DNA of 64,000 nt, from the IMG/VR virus record IMGVR_UViG_3300028805_000039, positions 127,852 through 191,851 of that record; one strand, given 5' to 3'. This document shows, piece by piece, positions 12,957 to 53,160 of this stretch. Under the pieces are notes generated by a model. The model worked only from the letters and a program-made list of their open reading frames with translations, searched no databases and was not told the origin of the DNA. This DNA is from a virus (taxonomy: Duplodnaviria > Heunggongvirae > Uroviricota > Caudoviricetes). How positions within the stretch are numbered: position 1 is the first letter of the stretch; every line of letters begins with the position of its first letter. The translations under genes and the position numbers were made by a program.

Positions 12957-13015
12957 AAGAAAGAAAAAGCATGATATAATAAAATCACAAAGAAAGAAAA
13001 AAGGAGATAAAACAA

Positions 13016-14128
13016 ATGGCTACTTCTTACTCTGTCTGCAAAGACCGCAACATGATTTACTTCACCAATGATGAGGGCAAGGTGTGGAGTTTTGATGTGA
13101 ACACTGGCATTTTCCTTTCCCCCAAGGGCAATGCCGTCAAGTCTTTCCCGACTGGACTGGGCAGTTTCATTGACGGGCATGATACCAGAAATGATATTCC
13201 CGCTGTTCGTCTGATGGCCTTTATCCGCAATAACCCCTATAACTATGGCGTGCGTGATTATAAAAATTACCATATGCTGAGAAATCCCAGTTATTATGCG
13301 AAGTTGGCTGTCCTGTTTCAGGCTATTGACAAAATGGCAAGTCTGGGCTGTTCTCCTGACCGTTGGAACGCTACTGCTTCTAACCTGACTTTCATCAATG
13401 ACCATTTCAAGGCTTTTGCCAAGTGGTACAAGGATAATCAGTCTAATGAAGTTGAAGAATTTGTCCGCCGTTATGGTGTTGAAATGTATTGCCATGAACA
13501 CCACATTGACCCCGAACACCTGAGTGCAGATACTATTTCTTTCATTCAGTTTTATCTGATTAGAAATAATGCCAAATGGGCATCTCCGGAATATCTCCCC
13601 TATGTTATGTATTATCTGTCACGTGGTCTGGTTGATTTTGTTGGCGTAAATGTCGCAAGTAACCTGCTTACCAATTTCTTTGACTGGTGTGAAACCACTG
13701 GTATCAAGCCGCAGAAGTCCGACTTTTATCGGCAGTATCTTGATGTAAAGCATACTTATATTGCTAATAAAAAGCAGTATGACATGATGGCACTTGCCAA
13801 CAACTACGCAGAAAAGAAAAACGCTCTGCTGTTTGAGGATGATACTTTTAAGGTTATTATCCCCACCACTGTTGAGGAATTTCAGGCAGAGGGTGATGCA
13901 CAGCACAACTGTGTGTACAGTATGTATCTTGAAAAGTGCATTAAAAATACTACTCATGTAGTATTTGTTCGCCGCAAGGACGCACTTAATAAGAGTTACA
14001 TTACTTGCGAAGTTGACAAGCGGGGCAACATTGTCCAGTATCTCGGACAGTATAACAACTGGGTATCTGACCCTGACGCAATCGCTTTCAAAAAGCATTA
14101 CATGGAGTGGCTTGCCAATAACTGGTAA
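13016..14128 (+). CDS. PcfJ-like domain protein (370 aa)
   Basis: C-terminal ...EGDAQHNCVYSMYLEKC... resembles the PcfJ-family E-G-x-x-M-H-H-C-V core; largest early gene. Confidence 0.45.
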   Translation: MATSYSVCKDRNMIYFTNDEGKVWSFDVNTGIFLSPKGNAVKSFPTGLGSFIDGHDTRNDIPAVRLMAFIRNNPYNYGVRDYKNYHMLRNPSYYAKLAVLFQAIDKMASLGCSPDRWNATASNLTFINDHFKAFAKWYKDNQSNEVEEFVRRYGVEMYCHEHHIDPEHLSADTISFIQFYLIRNNAKWASPEYLPYVMYYLSRGLVDFVGVNVASNLLTNFFDWCETTGIKPQKSDFYRQYLDVKHTYIANKKQYDMMALANNYAEKKNALLFEDDTFKVIIPTTVEEFQAEGDAQHNCVYSMYLEKCIKNTTHVVFVRRKDALNKSYITCEVDKRGNIVQYLGQYNNWVSDPDAIAFKKHYMEWLANNW

Positions 14129-16278: not shown

Positions 16279-16427
16279 GCCACGCCTTACCGCCCGGGCG
16301 CAAGATTGTTAAATAAATAACATTGAAAACCCTTCTTGACTTTTCCAAAATTTATGCTATACTATAATTGTTGATGCGGGAAAAGAAGTTAAACCCCATC
16401 ACAGAAAGGAATAAATATATGGAAAAA

Positions 16428-17129
16428 ATGTATGTGCTTGTTCTTGATGTTGAAACCGCTGGCGATGTTGAAAGTAATCCCCTTGTTTATGATGTTGGAG
16501 CTCAGATCGTTGACCTTAATGGTAATGTTATTGAGCGTGGCAGTTGGGTGATTTATGATATTTATACCCAGCGTGACCTGATGACTTCTGCTTACTATGC
16601 CGCGAAACTGCCGCAGTATGAACACGATATGGCAAATGGCACTCGCAAAATGGCACGACTTGAAACTGTCCGTAAAATTCTTTGGAAGTGGATGTTCAAA
16701 TATAATACTTTTCTTGTCGCCGCCTATAATGCTTCTTTCGACCGCAGAGCATTAAACAACACTGTTCGCACTCTTGGCATTGGCAATTATTTCTTTCCTT
16801 TTAAGACTAAGTTTATTGACATTTGGCGAATGGCTTGTTTGTCTATCTGCATGATGAAAAGTTATCACCAGATGGCGTATGAAAATGGCTGGTATAGTAA
16901 TGCTGGTAATATCCGCACTAATGCCGAAACTGTGTACAGTTTTCTTACAAATTCGCCCAATTTTGAGGAATCGCATACCGCCCTTGAAGATGTTGACATT
17001 GAAACAGAAATTATGCTTTACTGTTGGAAAAAGGTAAAAGCCGAAGATAGAGGCATTATCGGTTTTCCGTGGCGCATCCCGCAAAAAGAATGGATTTTCC
17101 ACGAAGCAAAATTTGATGAAATTATTTAA
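16428..17129 (+). CDS. DEDD-family (DnaQ-like) 3'-5' exonuclease
   Basis: LVLDVETAGD (exo I), AYNASFD (exo II), HTALEDVDIE (exo III); start refined to MEKMYV. Confidence 0.65.
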   Translation: MYVLVLDVETAGDVESNPLVYDVGAQIVDLNGNVIERGSWVIYDIYTQRDLMTSAYYAAKLPQYEHDMANGTRKMARLETVRKILWKWMFKYNTFLVAAYNASFDRRALNNTVRTLGIGNYFFPFKTKFIDIWRMACLSICMMKSYHQMAYENGWYSNAGNIRTNAETVYSFLTNSPNFEESHTALEDVDIETEIMLYCWKKVKAEDRGIIGFPWRIPQKEWIFHEAKFDEII

Positions 17130-22200: not shown

Positions 22201-22407
22201 ATGGCGGATAACCCTGTATCATGGTTTTTTCTTACTGTAATTGGTATTTATTTTATTTGTCGTTTTTTCAAAAAGGTAATTGATGAAAGCGAACGCCTAA
22301 AAGCGGAAAGAGAAAAAGCCTGTCAAGAAATTTTCTTTGAAAATTCTCTTGACAAAACAAATACTATGGCGTATAATAGATACATAAACAGGAGGGAAAA
22401 CAAATGA
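22201..22407 (+). CDS. small membrane protein (68 aa)
   Basis: ORF track; N-terminal TM helix. Confidence 0.45.
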   Translation: MADNPVSWFFLTVIGIYFICRFFKKVIDESERLKAEREKACQEIFFENSLDKTNTMAYNRYINRRENK

Positions 22408-23108
22408 ATTACATGATGATTGATACTGAGACTACTAATAGTCTTGATGACCCTTTTGCCTATGATGTAGGTTTTGAAGTTTTTGACCGTGACGGCAATA
22501 CTATTGAAATTGCGTCTTTAACTAATAAGGATTTGTTCCTTGATAAAAATTTTATGTCCACTGCTTACTATGCTGAAAAAATCCCTAACTATTGGAAAGA
22601 GATTTGGGCAAAAGAGCGTGAACTTTTAACTTGGCGGGAAATCAAGTGGAGAGTGTTCGATGCTTGTAAGCGAAACGATTGTCAGATTGTAGCGGCCCAC
22701 AATGCTATGTTTGACAATCGGGCATTAAACTTAACCCAGCGTTATATTACTACCAGTCAGTACCGTTATTTTCTGCCGTATGGTGTGACTTGGTGGGACA
22801 CTTTGAAAATGGCTCGTGAAGTTCTCGGCAAAGATGAAACTTATGCACGATTTTGTGAATACTTTGGATATACTACCGTAAGGGGCAAGCCTCGCTTTAC
22901 CGCTGAGATTGTATATAAATACATTAGTGGGGATATAGATTTTGAGGAACGGCATACTGGCCTTGAAGATGTAAAGATAGAAAAAGATATTTTTCTTTAT
23001 TGTCTTGACCGCGCCCCCGACATAGATGGGCGGCTTTGGAAACCTAAGCCGGAGCCGCCCCGTAAAATGGAACCTTGGGAAATCGAATTACAAGAATTAC
23101 TTGCTTAA
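22404..23108 (+). CDS. DEDD-family 3'-5' exonuclease (second paralog)
   Basis: MMIDTETT, AAHNAMFD, HTGLEDVKIE motifs. Confidence 0.6.
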   Translation: MNYMMIDTETTNSLDDPFAYDVGFEVFDRDGNTIEIASLTNKDLFLDKNFMSTAYYAEKIPNYWKEIWAKERELLTWREIKWRVFDACKRNDCQIVAAHNAMFDNRALNLTQRYITTSQYRYFLPYGVTWWDTLKMAREVLGKDETYARFCEYFGYTTVRGKPRFTAEIVYKYISGDIDFEERHTGLEDVKIEKDIFLYCLDRAPDIDGRLWKPKPEPPRKMEPWEIELQELLA

Positions 23109-25329: not shown

Positions 25330-26400
25330 CCCCTATGAATAATGCCCGGGCAAATCGGCCCGGAGACGCTAGCGTAGGGCCGAACTTCCATTATATCATA
25401 TTTCAGGAAAATTGTCAAGTAAAATATTGCACAAAAATTGGTTTACATAATATCCCGAAACTGTGCACTTTGCTACGCTAAATCGCTAACACTTTAGCAC
25501 GCTAAATCGCTAAATCGCTACTGCGTTAAAGTCCGGCCGCTATGTCTTGACAAAAATATCACAATGTCTGGAAAAAATCTCCATATGCGGCTCGATTTTA
25601 AACAAAAGTGGGCCTAATTTTACCGGTCGGTGGCTTTCGCTAGTCACATATGCGATTGATTTTAAAACAAAAGTGGCTTTAAAACCAGTATATAAAAAAT
25701 TTTAACTAGTTTTTTATCAAAAAAAACTAGTTTTTTTGCGTTTTTAAGTAGTTTTAACTCGTTTTTACTTAGTTTTGCGGCGTTTTTGGCTAGTTTTATC
25801 TCGAAAAAATACCACTTTTTTTGCCTATTTTTGGCGAAAAAAGCCGGTCGGAAACTTGACTTTTAAAAAAAAATTTGATATAATATCAAAAAAAACCATT
25901 TTTTTTTAGGCCGCACGCCCGGATAATAGCATCATTTTATCCTATTCCAGAAGCCAAAATTAAAGGTCAAATTGCCTCACATCAAAAAAAATTAACACGA
26001 ATTCACGTTTCTACTTTTAAAAGTAGTGCGGAGGACAAGAATTATGCCTGGCATACGAGTTCCAAGAGGAACAGAGAAAGGAAAAGTAGGCATATGCGGC
26101 CTTATATTTTATTTAATAATTGACAAATATAAAATAATATGATATAATATAAAAAAAACATACTTTAAATGAGGAGCCACGGATTTAATTCTATTTGCCT
26201 CGCACAAAAATTTTCATTCTCATTTTAACACCTTTATTTTTAACTTTCATAGATAAAACAAGACTATAACTGGCAATACGACTCCAGAGCAAACGAAAAA
26301 ATTTTTGAAGCCGGTCGGTTTAACTATGTATAAAAAGTATTAATTTGAATTTTTTAAAAAAATATTATATAATATATATAGAAAATAAATAAAGGAGAAT
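25330..26400. other. about 1.1-kb non-coding control region at the boundary between modules: short iterons, gccggtcgg x3, catatgcg x3, gattttaaacaaaagtgg x2, phased A/T tracts
   Basis: no ORFs; repeats listed; '(a)ctagtttt' tracts at a 10-11 bp period over 25690-25815; two promoter-like elements. Confidence 0.5.
25470..25540. repeat. cgctaaatcgcta iterons shared with 1680-1870
   Basis: ctacgctaaatcgctaacactttagcacgctaaatcgctaaatcgctact. Confidence 0.5.
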
Positions 26401-26407
26401 TTCTTAA

Positions 26408-26800
26408 ATGAATTATAATTTTAATGATGTAGAGAAGTATCTACGTAATGGTGGAGATGCTGTTGAGTTGGCTCAGGCTTTTGCTGATACTTTGAATAAT
26501 GCACTTGCTAAGTTCCAGAAGGAAAGCAAGTTGGATGAAAAAGCTAATGGGCTTGCCGCGGCTTGGAATGCTTATATTGACGAATATTTTAAGAATCATG
26601 ATGTCCCTGAGAATTATGTCGTGGCCGATATGTATCTCAATACTAAGGATGTCAATTATGTGATGGAGCAGGTGTTGAAGTTTATTCCTCTACTTGATAA
26701 GTTGAATGGATTCTTTGAGATTGGTGCGGAACAGGTGTCCAAGAGCAAGAATAAGGTAGAAGATACAGTAGATAAGTTCTTTGATAAGTTTGGTATCTAA
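26408..26800 (+). CDS. hypothetical protein (130 aa), first gene of the AT-rich module
   Basis: ORF track; late-type promoter at 26340-26395. Confidence 0.55.
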   Translation: MNYNFNDVEKYLRNGGDAVELAQAFADTLNNALAKFQKESKLDEKANGLAAAWNAYIDEYFKNHDVPENYVVADMYLNTKDVNYVMEQVLKFIPLLDKLNGFFEIGAEQVSKSKNKVEDTVDKFFDKFGI

Positions 26801-27229
26801 TAAGTGCCGGAATTAATTTTAATTGTGTACCTTGAAATTTGACAAATTTACTTGCCGTTAAATAAGAAACGAAGATGAACTCGTATTTCTACTTATAATT
26901 GTCGTAGAGTTGAGTTGGATAAAGTGGGAATACGAGTTTTTTAGAAACGGTTGACGGCAACGATGAAAATTAAAAGTCAAGATAAACCGGGCGGAGGCCA
27001 GACCTGTAACGCAATCCAGTGTTATAACGTAACGCAATCCAACCCAACACAATACAAATATAACGTCATAATATACCATTCCAAAAACAATATTTCCTTT
27101 CACTATCTAAAAAGTGAAAGGATTTTTTATTTTCATTTCATTTTTTAAAACACCCTCCCGCCAATTTTTCATTCCATTTTCCAAAACCTCTATTTCCCCT
27201 ATTCCCAGTGGACCACTCGCCGCCAATAC

Positions 27230-27362
27230 TCCCCATTCACAAATATGATTTATAATTATAGATTTATATTACTATCTATTATATATATTATTATATACTA
27301 TATATTATATAATTAAAAATATATATTATATAATATATCTATATAAAAATATATATATTATA
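27230..27362. repeat. pure A/T low-complexity tract (candidate DNA-unwinding element)
   Basis: about 130 bp containing only A and T. Confidence 0.6.
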
Positions 27363-27364
27363 TT

Positions 27365-27840
27365 TCTCCGGAAAAATTTACCGAATCTTGGTGAAAATGC
27401 CTGTTCCAACGACCGCATCTACTAATTCCAGACCAACTTTCGGTAAATTTTACCGTTTCTCCGGTCGTAAATTCGATAAAAATTACCGTTTTTGTGATAC
27501 GTAAATGCGGTAAAATTTACCGCTTTTCCGAGTGTAAATTCGGTAAAATTTACCGAATCTAAATAAAAATGCTAAAACGGTAAAAATTACCGCTTTTACG
27601 GTCGCAAATTCGGTAAAATTTACCGAATTAATACTTTTATCACAAAAATTTAGGAAGATTCATTTAATTCGGTAAAATTTACCGTTTTTCCGTTCGTAAA
27701 TGCGGTAAAATTTACCACTTTTAATATTAACTTTCGGTAAAATTTACCGCATTTACGGTCGCAGTTTCGGTAAAAATTACCGTTTTTCCGTTCGTATAAA
27801 ACGGTAAAAATTACCGTATTTACGACCGCCCCATCTTTTA
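27365..27840. repeat. iteron array: about 14 copies of the near-palindromic 15-mer CGGTAAAATTTACCG
   Basis: units separated by ccgttcgtaaat/gcggt spacers; adjacent to an initiator-like gene; candidate replication origin. Confidence 0.65.
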
Positions 27841-27858
27841 ATAAATTACCATAATTTA

Positions 27859-28293
27859 TTAAAATGTCTAAACTCGTCTTAACTCTCCATCGCTAAGCCG
27901 CACGACATCTTTTTCTATCCATTCAGCATCTTTGTCAACCTCATAACTCAATATGACTTTCAACTTATCCTTTTCATAAGTCTGCGGCACTTCATCAAAT
28001 CTATATCCATTACCAGAAATCTAAACGAGATATCCCTTATTCTCTAATCCCTATCTGGCTTCACGCCAACTTTTATCACTACCCCCAAATTCCTCAATTA
28101 AAGCCTATGGACTAAAAGCCCAACTATCTTTAATCCTATGACAATAAATCCATAAATAAACTTCAAAAGGCTTGCACTCTTTCACAACTTTCTCAAATGC
28201 TGCCGCACTTAATCTATAATAATGATGCGTCGTATCTTTTAAAGCCTCATATCCAGGATAAATAATCTTTGAATTTCTATAAGTCGTTGCCAA
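27859..28293 (-). CDS. replication-initiator / replisome-organiser-like HTH protein; recoded, with 4 in-frame TAG and a TTG start
   Basis: minus-strand frame reads ...WAFSP-TAG-ALIEEFGG...EAR-TAG-GLENKGYLV-TAG-ISGNGYRFDEV...RRV-TAG-TF then TAA; next to the iterons. Confidence 0.45.
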
Positions 28294-28298
28294 GATTA

Positions 28299-28472
28299 TT
28301 ACCCCCTTTGCGCAAGGACTTCCGCAAATGCTTCTTCAAGAGCATCACTTTCTTCAAAAGCCCAAGCCAAATACTTTGGATTAGTAGGATTCGGGAATGA
28401 CTCTATTGGACGAAATCCTTTCTCCAATAGACCTAACATAATTTGTTTTGAAAATATAATCTTTTGTTTCAT
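28299..28472 (-). CDS. small hypothetical protein (57 aa)
   Basis: minus strand: ATG MKQKIIFSKQ... to TAA; no internal TAG. Confidence 0.4.
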   Translation of the reverse strand: MKQKIIFSKQIMLGLLEKGFRPIESFPNPTNPKYLAWAFEESDALEEAFAEVLAQRG

Positions 28473-28494
28473 TTGTTATTTGTTCTCTCTTCCT

Positions 28495-28728
28495 TTACTA
28501 CTATTTGTTAGTAGTTTTACTATTTTTACTTACTGCGGTTCTATACATACGGAAACCTTTTCTAATTATACTAGCCATAGATACATCGTGTTTATCACAA
28601 TATCGCACTAACCAGCCATACTCTTCCGTAGTTAATTTCACCGATATCTAATGCACTTTCTTATCTTCCAAAAATATTTCAATCCTTTCCATTGCGGATT
28701 TAGGTATGTCTTTAAAGGTCTTTGACAT
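28495..28728 (-). CDS. ribbon-helix-helix-like small protein; recoded (TAG at codon 27; tail TAG TAG TAA)
   Basis: MSKTFKDIPKSAMERIEIFLEDKKVH-TAG-ISVKLTTEEYGWLVRYCDKHDVSMASIIRKGF... Confidence 0.4.
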
Positions 28729-28878
28729 ACCAAAAAAGATAGGCATTTAAACTTGCCTAAAAAGTTGTAAAATTTTAATATATTTTATTTTAACAAAAAT
28801 ATACAGATTTTCATATTGAATTTTATAAAAAAATATTATATAATATATATAGAAAAAATAATAAAGGAGTAATTTATA

Positions 28879-29097
28879 ATGAATAAAAATTATAAGAGTT
28901 TTTCGCTACCCGGTGGTGGTGTTCTCCGCATTAACAAAGACAAAATTGTCGCAACAATTAGTTCCGCAACTAATAACACTATTGAAATTTATTGCAGCGA
29001 CACTGCAATTCCTTTCCGCGTTGAAGCAACTAAACACACTCCCCAGGAAATTATAGATTGTATCTGGGATAATCATGATATTGATGGAGGCATGTGA
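28879..29097 (+). CDS. hypothetical protein (72 aa)
   Basis: ORF track; late-type promoter at 28810-28865. Confidence 0.5.
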   Translation: MNKNYKSFSLPGGGVLRINKDKIVATISSATNNTIEIYCSDTAIPFRVEATKHTPQEIIDCIWDNHDIDGGM

Positions 29098-29343
29098 ATG
29101 AAACTTTTTTATTGTGAGCTTACATGGTATGATAGCTATGCTGATAAAGAGCAAGAAGATAAATTATTTATTTTTGCTCATACTTGTGAAGAGGCTTGCC
29201 GCCAGGTAAGCGTTCATTTTAATGAAATTGTAAAAATTAATCTTGAAGTAGTAAATGATAATACTGGTAATACTAGTGTTCTCTTTATCGAGGGAAATGA
29301 TGAAGACGTGGTTCAGTCAATTAAAAATTCCAATACATACTGA
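29098..29343 (+). CDS. hypothetical protein (81 aa)
   Basis: ORF track; start overlaps the upstream stop (TGAATG). Confidence 0.5.
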   Translation: MKLFYCELTWYDSYADKEQEDKLFIFAHTCEEACRQVSVHFNEIVKINLEVVNDNTGNTSVLFIEGNDEDVVQSIKNSNTY

Positions 29344-48439: not shown

Positions 48440-49510
48440 AGAAATAATGGTAGTAGGCTTAGAAGTAGCCATCTTTAATGAGTAGTGATATGCCGTATGT
48501 GAGTATAGATAGTTTGTTAGTAAAGCTACTATGAATGGATAGAGAGAGTCAATTCCAAAGAAAACTAACCTTAAATTAGTCAGTTAAAAACGGGAACGCG
48601 GGGAGAAGCGGCTGTATATCAACCTGCGCTACGTGAAGCTATGGAGCTAATGAAGTTATGCTTGCAAGGACGGGGCCGACCTAAATGACCAATATACTTT
48701 TAGTGTAATAACACGCCATTATATTAGGTTGCCAGTTTACCAATACATTAAAAACTGATTTTATTAGGTTTTCAGTTTACCAATACATTAAAAAACTGGC
48801 CGGTAGTATAACCGTAAGCAAGGTGCAATACTTGCGGGAAACCGCAAAAGGGTGTCGTAGGTAACGACAGCAAGGCGAGTGCAAATCCACCCTAAAATTA
48901 AAAAATGGGTCAGGTCCTATCGCCCGATTAGGTAGGCGAGGAAAGTGAGGTAGGTTTTTATTCATAATGAATAATGTAAAATCCTTCGCCTTGTAAGCGT
49001 CCAAGTGAAATATATTGGCTACCTAATCTTTTTATCTATCTATCAAGAGTAGAAAAGATTGAGGCCGATTTAAATGCGGCGGTCGTATAAAATACCGCAT
49101 ACAACGAGACCTAACTTAGGATAAGTTATGGTGTTATTTATGATTTGCGCGCAGGTCATCTTAGTGTGTAAAGCCACATTAAATTGAAGGAATCCTTCGC
49201 CCCAGCTTAGGGGAGGAATATAAGCAAAAAGATTTGGCTCTTATTGCCAATTGTCAAAAGTATAAGTATTGTAGTATGCTACACGATAGGGAACCCTAAA
49301 ACACTCGTTAGGTGGGAAGGTGAATTGAGAGTGTAATATATAACTCTATGTGGTGCCCAACATGAAGGTGGCAATGTCGAGCTGACGGCTACAGTAAAGG
49401 GTGACGCCTATCAGTTAGCAGAATATGAAAATTGAGGAGCTATGATGCCTCCGGGGCCATTAGGCTGTCTGGCCACGAAACTCAAGGAAGTTATTTCCAC
49501 CAGTCTTTTT
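48440..49510 (+). ncRNA. GC-enriched non-coding island of about 1.07 kb (large structured RNA candidate) containing a 2 x 38-bp tandem repeat
   Basis: no ORFs with RBS; stems such as gcgggaaaccgc; tandem attaggtt(g/t)(c/t)cagtttaccaatacattaaaaa(a)ctg at 48719-48797. Confidence 0.3.
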
Positions 49511-52099: not shown

Positions 52100-53160
52100 T
52101 AGTTTAAGATACCTTACAGCAAAAAATGTAATAAAAAAATATGTGGGTGGTTTGGTATCTTGTTTGACAATTCAAAAAAAATTTGATATAATATATTTAG
52201 ACAGTTAGACAGCAATATAATTTAAATAACAAGTTTTATTCAAATATAAAAAGACATGTTTTATTCTCCTTATTTGATATAAAAGAGATTTGATTTTATT
52301 GTGATTCTAATTTCATCAAATCTGCCAGTTATGGAATTATAAAGAAAAGGAATTAACTGTCTAGTTTATTTAAAATTTAAATTATATATAATAAAGACAC
52401 ATGCAGCAATTGATTTACAAAAGGTTGAAATTGTAGGCTGTATACCCACGGTGAAATGGTTCGAATCCATTAAATATTAAAGTGTCTTGTTATTATTAAG
52501 TCTTAAAATATAAATACAAGTTTTGATAACTCAGTGCAGACTATAAGCGACTTATAGGCTGAGAAATACCGAAGTGAGGCTCGGCACGGAACGAAACAAG
52601 GATACTTGTGGATAGTGGACCGCACTTTATATCGTGAGATATAAAGCGAACCCATGCGGGGAAAGGAAAGGTATTGTGCTAAAGTTATCGCAATTTAAAA
52701 TACCCGAGGGCGGGCAGAGTAATAGAAAGCTTTGTTGATAAGACAAAGCCGAATCCAGAAAACCGCGACCGGTGGCACGGCGTGAGAGTCTGGAAAAGCC
52801 AAACAATCTGTTGAATGTAGTTGAATAGGAGAAATCCTAGTATAACGCCTAACCAGGGTGCGAGTAGGGGAAATCTACAAAGGCTCAAATCTTAAAGACT
52901 TGAAGATATTATATTATTGATTGGTAAATATAATTAACAATACAATTTCTGAAAGTCCCCTGAAAGTTGTGGGTAAGCAATCCCACCAAGACGAAAGTTA
53001 GCTGTAAGCTAATGTCATAGGAAGCGTCATATCGACGGGTATGAGCTCAGACCTATGGTAGCTTGTGATTGAAAAAAATTGAAGGTAATTAGTAGTAGGG
53101 GGAAGCCCCATCAAAAAATCTGTATTTATATTTTAGGACTTAAAGTTCTTATTAAGAGAA
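52100..53160 (+). ncRNA. non-coding island of about 1 kb: an AT-rich promoter zone followed by a GC-enriched structured core (52500-53100)
   Basis: no ORFs; an isolated T-arm-like atggttcgaatccat at about 52460; stems such as cccgagggcgggc, ccgcgaccggtggcacggcg and ctacaaaggctc. Confidence 0.3.

What the first reader, a model, noticed from the sequence alone, without database searches (positions are those of the whole stretch)
27230..28293. Replication-origin-like region: 130-bp pure A/T tract, about 14 iterons of CGGTAAAATTTACCG, and an adjacent recoded initiator-like gene
This is the classic arrangement of an unwinding element, iterons and an initiator gene. The 15-mer is nearly palindromic and is repeated with conserved ccgttcgtaaat/gcggt spacers over about 470 bp. 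The flanking minus-strand gene encodes an HTH/replisome-organiser-like protein and itself needs 4 TAG read-throughs.
Basis: partly seen in the sequence, partly recalled or inferred. Interest (0 to 1): 0.65.

Follow-up and report, generated by a model that had tools for sequence, protein, structure and literature searches.

The report
Iteron array beside initiator-like gene
A large gut phage that reads the TAG stop codon as glutamine carries twelve copies of a 15-bp palindrome between an A+T-rich tract and a small DNA-binding gene, which is most likely a replication origin and its binding protein, though no replication has been demonstrated.

Summary
There are 12 copies of CGGTAAAATTTACCG, not 14. 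They lie at 27369-27816, mostly 33 bp apart, against 0.25 matches expected by chance, and occur nowhere else in the 64 kb. They abut a 125-bp tract that is 95% A+T rather than pure A/T; it is the most A+T-rich stretch of the window.

The gene, a DUF5659-like partner gene and an array of 9-16 palindromes are conserved in at least seven diverged lineages. The core GTAAWWWTTAC is invariant, and the flanking bases co-vary with the recognition helix.

Unrelated phages carry the same palindrome inside λ-O-like initiator genes, beside a DnaB-like helicase gene or DnaA boxes.

My best reading is an iteron-type replication origin (confidence about 0.55). Against it, GC skew shows no inflection, the protein lacks a helicase-recruiting domain, and three related lineages lack the A+T tract. 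A regulatory, partition or packaging role is not excluded.

The parts
28495..28746 (-). First gene of the minus-strand operon. It encodes a small ribbon-helix-helix-like protein of about 85 aa, with 1 internal TAG and 2 TAG codons just before the TAA stop.
   Evidence: Translation is. It hits phrog_876 'transcriptional repressor' at 1.6e-5. The equivalent gene in L145 hits DUF6290 and NikA-like RHH families. It is conserved with the module in the window lineage, the L134 lineage and L145, but was not found in L142, L146 or L148.
28299..28472 (-). p57, a 57-aa partner gene immediately upstream of the winged-helix gene. It is a distant DUF5659 relative.
27859..28293 (-). Winged-helix protein of 144 aa, the candidate array-binding initiator. 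It has a TTG start, 4 in-frame TAG codons read as Gln, and a TAA stop.
27369..27816 (.). Array of 12 palindromic 15-bp sites (CGGTAAAWTTTACCG), mostly 33 bp apart, with pseudo-symmetric spacers.
   Evidence: The array is described. It is conserved in relatives with whole-unit gains and losses, 11 versus 12 copies. The core GTAAWWWTTAC is invariant in all lineages that carry an array.
27626..27669 (.). Central 44-bp spacer between palindromes 27611 and 27670. It is inverted in some close relatives.
   Evidence: Compared with the window in gene-sense orientation, the L120 spacer is 93% identical as its reverse complement and 57% identical directly.
27357..27383 (-). Junction element: the last, degenerate palindrome (27369-27383) followed by GAGAAATATAAT (27357-27368, with TATAAT at 27357-27362 on the minus strand). 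It may be an iteron-overlapped promoter pointing into the A+T tract.
   Evidence: It occurs once per locus, always at the distal end of the array, in the window, L134, L142 and L146 lineages. L148 and L150 carry variants. It shares TATAATATATATA with the phage's canonical promoter, while the -35 position is occupied by the palindrome. Promoter activity is inferred, and the consensus scan did not call it.
27241..27365 (.). A+T-rich tract of 125 bp at 95% A+T, the candidate DNA-unwinding element. It is built from tandem TATAAT-like units.
   Evidence: It is the most A+T-rich 100-nt and 120-nt stretch of the window. TRF periods are 19-28. The same position is at least 90% A+T in the L134 lineage. 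Its length varies among close relatives, and it is absent in the L142, L146 and L148 lineages.
27130..27240 (-). G-rich block (G41/C6 on the minus strand). It contains two direct repeats of GTTTTRRAAAATGRAATGAAAA at 27130-27151 and 27166-27187.
   Evidence: See (D9). A similar G-rich stretch and repeats occur in the L120, L125, L135, L134 and L124 loci, and a related element in L142. Function is unknown.
27095..27122 (.). Ten-bp stem hairpin that closes the non-coding region. It reads as a terminator mainly for plus-strand transcription.

Best explanation
This is an iteron-type replication origin together with its origin-binding protein, in a phage of at least about 240 kb that reads TAG as glutamine.

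Proposed mechanism, in steps:
1. The 144-aa winged-helix protein binds as a dimer to each 15-bp palindrome. The dimer and the direct contact are inferred from site symmetry, fold, and co-variation between protein and site.
2. Twelve sites about three helical turns apart let bound dimers line up and interact into a large nucleoprotein complex, comparable to the λ O-some. This is inferred.
3. The strain from this complex is released in the directly abutting 125-bp, 95% A+T tract, which melts. This is inferred.
4. A helicase and primase encoded elsewhere are then recruited. Candidates for the contact are the always-linked 57-aa DUF5659-like protein and the protein's invariant C-terminal Trp...Phe tail. 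This step is speculative.
5. A conserved TATAAT at the junction between array and A+T tract, together with read-through from the operon, could send RNA into the A+T tract and the G-rich block beyond it. That would activate the origin or prime synthesis, as at T7 and T4 origins or pAMβ1. This step is also speculative.

What is shown directly: the array, its statistical significance, its conservation and linkage to the gene, the co-variation of flank with helix, and the initiator-like fold and homology.
For: 1. The array is far beyond chance and confined to this locus.
2. It abuts the most A+T-rich stretch of the window.
3. The protein looks like a replication initiator.
   - Its only PHROG hits below 1e-3 are 'replication initiation protein' and 'DnaD-like helicase loader'.
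   - The family profile finds 2057 clusters.
   - Eight of ten long members hit only PHROG replication-initiator families at 1e-6 to 1e-8.
4. The order p57, winged-helix gene, array is kept in lineages whose winged-helix proteins are only 34-44% identical to the window's: L134/L124/L140, L121, L142-144, L146/147, L148/149, L150 and L151/152. Arrays have 9-16 sites. The surrounding synteny (FNT channel gene, 81-aa gene) is also kept, so this is a core region and not a mobile insertion.
5. The core GTAAWWWTTAC is invariant while the flanks differ by lineage and track the start of the recognition helix. GGS[DE]K[ST]WR goes with CGGTAA. GGTRKTW[A/G/S] goes with GAGaGTAA, TGaGTAA or TGGGTAA.
6. In unrelated phages of 45-56% G+C, the same CGGTAAWWWTTACCG sits 2-4 times inside λ-O-like initiator genes.
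   - L122 hits phrog_678, 186 and 270, and is followed by a DnaB_C helicase gene.
   - L123, L127 and L130 have two perfect DnaA boxes about 20 bp from the palindromes.
   - L132 aligns to the family profile at E 2e-7.
7. A more distant family member (L145) has three in-gene palindromes, GGCCAAAATGGCC, just after its winged-helix coding part. A palindrome array immediately 3' of the winged-helix coding segment therefore recurs across the group.
8. The two half-site variants in L146 (GAGAG and GAGGG) occur in mixed orientations. That fits protein half-sites rather than RNA stems.
Against: - No replication data exist for this phage.
- Cumulative GC skew shows no inflection at the locus.
- There is no DnaA box within 1 kb, and no helicase, primase or polymerase gene is adjacent. 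The nearest nucleic-acid genes found are two DEDD-exonuclease-like genes 4-11 kb away.
- The protein is only 144 aa, and 113-135 aa in most relatives. It lacks the C-terminal helicase-loading domain of λ O, DnaD and RepA_N.
- It meets no curated Pfam or NCBIfam cut-off.
- Foldseek against the PDB gave nothing significant, and its weak top hits include the centromere-binding TubR and GntR-type regulators.
- The A+T tract is replaced by a conserved GC-rich hairpin in the L142, L146 and L148 lineages, so it is not a universal part of the module.
- Its length varies among close relatives as slippage-prone DNA would.
- Four of the gene's five Gln codons are TAG, so the full-length protein needs TAG suppression. 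That is awkward for an early initiator. However, replication genes are reported to be recoded in some phage clades (10.1101/2021.08.26.457843).
Confidence: 0.55

Rival explanations
1. The array is a transcriptional control region and not an origin. The winged-helix protein binds the array to switch the conserved junction promoter (TATAAT). That promoter drives a non-coding RNA: the GC-rich hairpin RNA in other lineages, or an A+T-rich then G-rich transcript here. Alternatively the protein autoregulates or insulates the operon.
For: - GAGAAATATAAT lies at the array end in the window, L134, L142 and L146 lineages, with variants in L148 and L150. The last palindrome sits where a -35 element would be.
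- In L142, L146 and L148 a conserved hairpin starts 4-5 nt after the TATAAT, as an sRNA 5' end would.
- The protein is short, like a plain regulator.
- Weak GntR and LldR-type hits exist.
Against: - Nine to sixteen sites over about 450 bp are far more than a promoter switch needs.
- No copy of the site lies in the operon's own promoter or at any other promoter in the 64 kb.
- Homology and fold point to initiators, not regulators.
- The same site lies in O-like genes beside a helicase gene or DnaA boxes.
- A promoter feeding an origin is also compatible with the main explanation.
Confidence: 0.15
2. The array is a partition or maintenance element (a centromere-like site) for an episomal phage genome. 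A small DNA-binding protein would coat the repeats and link the genome to a segregation machine or a cell structure, as in TubR-tubC, ParR-parC or EBNA1 with the family of repeats of EBV oriP.
For: - The architecture resembles centromeres and the EBV family of repeats: many evenly spaced sites for a small dimeric protein.
- TubR appears among the weak Foldseek hits, at probability 0.57-0.60 and E about 0.14.
- An RHH gene is in the operon.
- One distant relative (L145) lies next to an integrase gene, which suggests temperate lifestyles in the wider family.
Against: - No ParA, ParM or TubZ-type NTPase was found within about 10 kb (precomputed Pfam; my scans).
- The array lies downstream of the operon, not upstream.
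- Family members hit only replication PHROGs.
Confidence: 0.12
3. The array is a packaging recognition site (pac), and the winged-helix protein is a small-terminase-like DNA-recognition subunit that wraps the repeats.
For: - Small terminases are proteins of about 140-180 aa with an N-terminal HTH domain that bind repeated boxes near their own gene.
- Heavy TAG use would fit a late gene.
Against: - No terminase large-subunit gene was found among the ORFs scanned in the window.
- There are no TerS hits in Pfam or PHROGs.
- Fold and profile relationships are to initiators.
- The same site occurs within O-like genes next to a helicase gene or DnaA boxes.
Confidence: 0.04

Closest known systems
Lambdoid phage ori with the O protein (ori-λ, the O-some)
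   Same: Both have several palindromic initiator sites with A/T-rich centres lying next to an A+T-rich region. The initiator binds through an N-terminal winged helix. Family relatives give weak Phage_rep_O, phage_O_Nterm and phrog_678 matches. In L122, L123 and L132 the same palindrome sits inside the O-like gene, exactly as in λ.
   Different: Here there are 12 sites against 4 in λ, and they are non-coding, lying just downstream of a much shorter gene. There is no C-terminal domain to recruit a helicase loader. The window protein does not reach the Phage_rep_O cut-off.
DnaD and DnaB(Bsu) N-terminal winged-helix domains, and RepA_N plasmid initiators (PDB 5wtn, 2vn2, 8ojj, 4pta)
   Different: There is no sequence-level membership. 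Foldseek was not significant. The C-terminal domains of these proteins are absent.
Iteron plasmids (P1 oriR, F, RK2, R6K, pPS10, pSC101)
   Same: They share the layout of an initiator-site array, an adjacent A+T-rich unwinding region and the initiator gene in cis.
   Different: Plasmid iterons are direct repeats bound by monomers of WH1-WH2 Rep proteins, usually accompanied by DnaA boxes. Here the sites are palindromes, the protein has one winged helix, and no DnaA box is present.
pAMβ1 / Inc18 RepE origin, and the transcription-primed origins of T7 and T4 (oriF, oriG)
   Same: From general knowledge, these origins lie immediately downstream of and co-directional with the rep gene (pAMβ1), or combine a promoter with a downstream A+T-rich unwinding element whose transcript primes synthesis. 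Here the operon reads into the array, and a conserved TATAAT faces the A+T tract and the G-rich block.
   Different: Those origins have no large iteron array. No transcript has been shown here.
EBV oriP family of repeats with EBNA1; the TubR-tubC and ParR-parC centromeres
   Same: Each has many evenly spaced sites of about 30 bp for a small dimeric DNA-binding protein.
   Different: The folds or systems are unrelated. These elements act in maintenance or partition and have partner machinery, which was not found here.

Membership tests
Iteron-type replication origin (phage or plasmid) | A cluster of repeated initiator-binding sites, statistically non-random | tested here: met
   There are 12 sites against 0.25 matches expected, and none elsewhere in the 64 kb. 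The cluster is conserved in at least 7 lineages.
Iteron-type replication origin (phage or plasmid) | An A+T-rich unwinding element adjacent to the sites | tested here: inconclusive
   It is present here (125 bp, 95% A+T, the window maximum) and in the L134 lineage. In L142, L146 and L148 a GC-rich hairpin takes its place. Melting was not tested.
Iteron-type replication origin (phage or plasmid) | An initiator encoded in cis that binds the repeats | tested here: inconclusive
   Adjacency, an initiator-like fold and co-variation of site flank with recognition helix all support it. Binding itself cannot be tested with these tools.
Iteron-type replication origin (phage or plasmid) | Replication actually starts here (marker frequency, skew inflection) | tested here: inconclusive
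   Cumulative GC skew has no inflection at the locus and only a local dip from the inverted genes. Skew follows gene orientation here, so the test is not informative. Read-depth data are not available.
Iteron-type replication origin (phage or plasmid) | Host DnaA boxes (present in many origins of this type, not all) | tested here: not met
   There is no TTATCCACA with up to 1 mismatch in 26000-29500. Two perfect boxes are present in the L123-type loci.
Phage_rep_O (PF04492 / TIGR01610), λ-O-type initiators | Profile score above the curated cut-off | tested here: not met
   The window protein has no hit. Relatives score 14-26 bits against cut-offs of 28.7 and 45.5.
Phage_rep_O (PF04492 / TIGR01610), λ-O-type initiators | Iterons inside the initiator gene, and a C-terminal helicase-loader-binding domain | tested here: not met
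   The array is non-coding and downstream of the gene. The protein ends about 45 residues after the winged helix.
DnaD-like / RepA_N winged-helix initiators | The N-terminal winged-helix fold of this class | tested here: inconclusive
DnaD-like / RepA_N winged-helix initiators | Sequence-profile membership | tested here: not met
   No Pfam or NCBIfam family is met. The only hits are PHROG matches at about 1e-4. A PDB sequence search found nothing relevant.
Partition centromere systems (TubZRC, ParMRC, ParABS) | A partner NTPase gene in the same operon or neighbourhood | tested here: not met
   None was found in about 10 kb on either side or among the larger ORFs scanned.
Partition centromere systems (TubZRC, ParMRC, ParABS) | A repeat array bound by a small dimeric DNA-binding protein, usually upstream of the operon | tested here: inconclusive
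   The repeat array is present but lies downstream of the operon. TubR appears only as a weak Foldseek hit.
Small terminase with pac site | A TerS profile match and an adjacent large-terminase gene | tested here: not met
   There is no TerS hit, and no large terminase among the neighbours scanned.

The most novel reading that the evidence does not exclude
The palindrome core GTAAWWWTTAC is a widely shared origin 'word'. It would be read by a large, uncurated family of minimal winged-helix origin binders, and would mark the replication origin of a clade of large TAG-recoded gut phages. Four of the initiator's five Gln codons are TAG, three of them in or before the recognition helix. Full-length initiator could then appear only once TAG is read as Gln, so firing of this origin, or a switch to a late replication mode, would be gated by the change of genetic code. 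An iteron-controlled TATAAT would then launch an RNA through the A+T tract into the G-rich block to open or prime the origin.
Probability: 0.15. Interest if true: 0.75.

Novelty: new variant of a known kind. Interest (0 to 1): 0.52.

Why it matters
No origin of replication has been defined for large uncultivated phages with reassigned stop codons. In the study I read, skew-based methods often failed for them (10.1101/2021.08.26.457843). This locus gives a concrete, testable candidate: a short protein, a 15-bp site with lineage-specific flanks, and a neighbouring unwinding tract. It also uncovers a family of more than 2000 clusters of winged-helix proteins that have no curated annotation. The site core is conserved in phages from 31% to 68% G+C and did not appear in the searchable literature. 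If confirmed, the motif could be used to locate origins in metagenomic phage genomes, and to ask whether initiator translation is tied to the code switch.

Tried and rejected
- Single 15-mer scan of viral contigs. It returned only single chance matches. The double-site pattern was informative.
- BLAST of the region and of the winged-helix protein against GenBank phages found no relatives. The O-like proteins of L122 and L132 also have no GenBank phage match.
- Pattern scan of 185,579 species genomes gave 0 hits. Protein-guided scans of IMG/VR found no relatives.
- Rfam. There is no family for the array region, for the GC-rich hairpin of other lineages, or for the flanking conserved element. 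The only hits are sub-threshold long-hairpin miRNA models, caused by the inverted repeats.
- Palindromes as RNA hairpins or terminators. Rejected, because the L146 half-site variants occur in mixed orientations and the stems are 6 bp with 3-nt loops.
- CRISPR-like array. Rejected by inspection, because the 'spacers' are conserved and pseudo-symmetric.
- Whole-array dyad symmetry. The two halves match each other equally well in direct and in inverted orientation, so no claim is made beyond the inversion of the central spacer.
- In-gene iterons across the family. I looked for the peptide signature V[KNI][IF]T. Only 1 of 148 representatives has 2 or more motif matches, which is no enrichment.
- Function of p57. 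The fold search was uninformative.
- Literature search for the motif strings and for DUF5659 found nothing relevant.
- An apparent deletion variant, L158, turned out to be colinear with the window.
Full report
CONTEXT. The window is low in G+C and almost entirely transcribed on the plus strand. It carries 29 tRNA genes and a ROOL RNA. Many ORFs are interrupted by in-frame TAG. A 780-aa major-vault-protein-like ORF is 40% identical to ORFs in uncultured phages of 462-735 kb. Exact copies of one gene of the locus lie on contigs of up to 239.6 kb, and a close relative lies on a 241-kb contig. The finding therefore sits in a large phage that reads TAG as an amino acid. The locus is a small minus-strand island in this plus-strand landscape, and GC skew is negative only at 27-29 kb.

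THE OBSERVATION. The palindrome CGGTAAAATTTACCG, allowing up to 2 mismatches, occurs at 12 sites between 27369 and 27816. That is 23 strand-matches against 0.25 expected, and there are no copies elsewhere in the 64 kb. The 11-bp core GTAAWWWTTAC occurs 10 times, all in the array, against 0.32 expected. Eight of the eleven spacings are 32-34 bp, and the others are 37, 59 and 72 bp. The spacers are pseudo-symmetric (TTTACCG-c-ATTTACG-aa-CGGAAAA-a-CGGTAAA), so weaker half-site-like elements flank each palindrome.

The A+T tract is 27241-27365: 125 bp at 95% A+T, with a longest pure run of 40 nt. It is the most A+T-rich 100-nt and 120-nt stretch in the window. It is built of tandem TATAAT-like units.

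The minus-strand ORF 27859-28293 encodes 144 aa with four in-frame TAG codons.

TAG IS READ AS GLN. The TAG positions are conserved in relatives, and conserved residues continue after each of them. At one codon L124 has TAG where L134 has a standard Gln codon. The invariant C-terminal Phe lies beyond the fourth TAG. Four of the gene's five Gln codons are TAG.

THE PROTEIN. Pfam and NCBIfam give nothing above cut-off. The only PHROG hits below 1e-3 are 'replication initiation protein' (phrog_270, 1.3e-4) and 'DnaD-like helicase loader' (phrog_186, 2e-4).

I modelled the 93%-identical P0001 with AlphaFold2, because the TAG-containing window sequence was not accepted by the tool. The model has pLDDT 78. 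It shows an N-terminal strand, a winged helix-turn-helix at residues 30-101 and a small C-terminal β unit.

A profile of 17 homologues finds 2057 clusters at E up to 1e-3. The domain is at the N-terminus in nearly all listed hits, in proteins of about 90-480 aa. Of ten long members sampled, eight hit only PHROG replication-initiator families (186, 270, 428, 678) at 1e-6 to 1e-8, and none hit regulators, partition proteins or terminases at that threshold. The protein is thus a short member of a large uncurated family related to phage initiators. It lacks any domain that could load a helicase.

COMPARATIVE EVIDENCE. A scan of metagenome contigs for two palindromes 15-22 bp apart, together with contigs encoding homologues, gave three kinds of relatives.

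First, there are close relatives: L120, L125, L131, L135, L129, L137, L141 and L153-158. Where tested, their winged-helix proteins are 90-96% identical to the window's. The module is the same, the arrays hold 11 or 12 sites that differ by whole 33-34-bp units, and the A+T tract varies in length. The central 44-bp spacer (27626-27669) is inverted in L120 and L135 relative to the window, at 93% against 57% identity for L120.

Second, there are diverged lineages whose winged-helix proteins are 34-44% identical to the window's: L134/L124/L140, L121, L142-144, L146/147, L148/149, L150 and L151/152. All keep the order p57 homologue, winged-helix gene, array of 9-16 palindromes starting within about 40 bp of the stop codon. 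L121, a short contig, shows only the first two sites. The neighbouring FNT-channel and 81-aa genes are also syntenic in L151. This is a vertically inherited core region, not a mobile insert.

The core GTAAWWWTTAC is invariant in these lineages, but the flanks differ and track the start of the recognition helix. GGS[DE]K[ST]WR goes with CGGTAA in six lineages. GGTRKTW[A/G/S] goes with GAGaGTAA, TGaGTAA or TGGGTAA in three. The three TRKTW lineages may form one clade, so this counts as few independent events. It is still what direct recognition predicts. In L146 the two half-site variants occur in mixed orientations, which fits protein half-sites and not RNA stems.

Third, there are unrelated phages of 45-56% G+C in which the same CGGTAAWWWTTACCG occurs 2-4 times inside a gene for a λ-O-like protein, just after its winged-helix part.
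- L122 and L139 hit phrog_678 'replication initiation O-like' at 5e-10. In L122 the gene is followed by a DnaB_C helicase gene.
- L123, L127 and L130 have two perfect DnaA boxes about 20 bp from the palindromes.
- L132 aligns to the family profile at E 2e-7.

These proteins share an SEKT[AV]R, or in L123 TEKTAR, recognition-helix start with the window's SDKSWR. A more distant family member in L145 has three in-gene palindromes, GGCCAAAATGGCC, at the equivalent place. A palindrome array immediately 3' of the winged-helix coding segment is therefore recurrent. In the window's group it is non-coding, and the protein stops short of it.

THE DISTAL JUNCTION. In the window, L134, L142 and L146 lineages the array ends with a degenerate palindrome followed by GAGAAAWATAAT, once per locus. 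L148 and L150 carry variants. The window's canonical promoter, TTGAAA-N17-TATAATATATATAGAAAA, is present about 20 times on the plus strand. The junction shares TATAATATATATA with it, but the last palindrome sits where the -35 element would be.

In the window and L134 lineages an A+T tract of about 100-165 nt follows. Next comes a block that is G-rich on the gene-sense strand (G41/C6 over 27130-27240), with 2-4 direct repeats of GTTTTGRAAAATGAAATGAAAAAT. In L142, L146 and L148 a conserved GC-rich hairpin (GGATAGGCTACTCGCC...GGCCGAGTATCCTATCC) follows the TATAAT instead. It has no Rfam match. The A+T tract is therefore a lineage-specific version of whatever follows the junction. A promoter firing out of the array is plausible but unproven, and the consensus scan did not call it.

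INTERPRETATION. The best-supported reading is an iteron-type origin with its origin-binding protein. Dimers on 12 palindromes spaced about three helical turns apart would build a higher-order complex that destabilises the abutting A+T tract. The replisome would be recruited through partners encoded elsewhere. Candidates for the contact are the always-linked p57 (a DUF5659 relative) and the invariant C-terminal W...F tail. Transcription into the tract may assist or prime initiation, by analogy with T7, T4 and pAMβ1, which I cite from general knowledge. I put about 0.55 on 'origin', and much more (about 0.85) on the narrower claim that the array is the specific binding site of the adjacent protein.

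AGAINST AN ORIGIN.
- There are no replication data.
- There is no skew inflection. Skew here follows gene orientation, and a genome replicated in one direction would show no sign change at its origin. The recoded-phage survey reports unidirectional or unclear skew for several clades.
- There are no DnaA boxes.
- No helicase, primase or polymerase gene was found nearby.
- The protein is minimal.
- The A+T tract is not universal in the group.
- Expression depends on TAG suppression. The same survey notes that replication genes are variably recoded, and mostly recoded in Lak phages.

RIVALS. The rivals are control of a promoter and non-coding RNA (0.15), a partition or maintenance element (0.12) and a pac site with a TerS-like protein (0.04). 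A chance repeat, a terminator array and a CRISPR-like array are excluded.

NOVELTY. The kind of element, iterons with a winged-helix initiator gene and an A+T-rich tract, is classical. Several features are new:
- a minimal initiator-like family without curated annotation;
- a non-coding array of 9-16 palindromes just after the gene;
- an invariant core shared with unrelated phages from 31% to 68% G+C, which is absent from the searchable literature, from 185,579 reference genomes as a paired site and from GenBank phages;
- the conserved junction element;
- the setting in a large recoded phage.

Noticed in passing
window 52506-53129 (+): A full-length ROOL RNA (RF03087, 292 bits against a gathering score of 99) lies inside the tRNA-rich region of the phage.
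   Followed up: no
window 4727-62803 (+), densest at 47.5-62.8 kb: There are 29 tRNA genes, all on the plus strand, and none has a CUA anticodon. The TAG suppressor must therefore lie outside the window.
   Followed up: no
window 30884-33226 (+): A 780-aa protein has major-vault-protein shoulder and repeat domains (PF11978 at 6.7e-19, PF17795). It is 40% identical to ORFs in uncultured phages of 462-735 kb.
   Followed up: partly
window, about 20 sites, e.g. 6414, 17168, 26348, 28819, 33277, 36306, 44521, 45214, 45800, 54498, 54829, 60827: A near-identical promoter-like element, TTGAAAATTTTAAAAAAATATTATATAATATWTATAGAAAA (TTGAAA-N17-TATAAT plus a conserved downstream box), precedes many plus-strand genes and tRNA clusters. 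A variant ends in GTAAGATAAA.
   Followed up: partly
window 26832-27000 (+): A conserved non-coding element lies between the 130-aa gene and the origin-like region. An invariant TTGAAATTTGACAAATTTAC is followed by an 18-bp hairpin with a T-run, and then by a conserved GACGGCAACG...AACCGGGCGG...GCCAG segment. It is shared with the L134 lineage, with 3 compensated pairs, and could be a small RNA. No Rfam match was found.
   Followed up: partly
L142 6865-6920, L146 2412-2470, L148 about 2850: A conserved GC-rich hairpin, GGATAGGCTACTCGCC...GGCCGAGTATCCTATCC, starts 4-5 nt after the junction TATAAT, in the place of the window's A+T tract. It has no Rfam match and could be a small RNA or a structured DNA element.
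   Followed up: partly
window 27626-27669, compared with L120 1172-1215: The central 44-bp spacer of the array is inverted between close relatives. It is flanked by inverted AATTCGGTAAATTTTACCGAATT copies, which suggests recombination or hairpin-mediated flipping within the array.
   Followed up: yes
window 29547-30248 (-): A second minus-strand gene encodes a 233-aa formate/nitrite-transporter-family channel with 4 in-frame TAG codons. It is syntenic with the module in L153 and L151.
   Followed up: no
window 16368-17129 and 22377-23108 (+): Two paralogous DEDD-type exonuclease-like genes hit phrog_20187 and phrog_192 'DNA polymerase exonuclease subunit'.
   Followed up: no
window 12983-14128 (+) and 62822-63697 (+): A PcfJ-like protein (PF14284 at 1.2e-19) and a radical SAM protein are encoded here.
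   Followed up: no
window 48718-48794: A 40-bp tandem repeat, 1.9 copies at 91% identity, lies in the tRNA region.
   Followed up: no
L136 1030-1150 (68% G+C) and L126 160-310 (54% G+C): The A/T-centred palindrome CGGTAAAATTTACCG recurs 3-4 times at 31-bp spacing in contigs of 54-68% G+C. The gene context there is unresolved.
   Followed up: no
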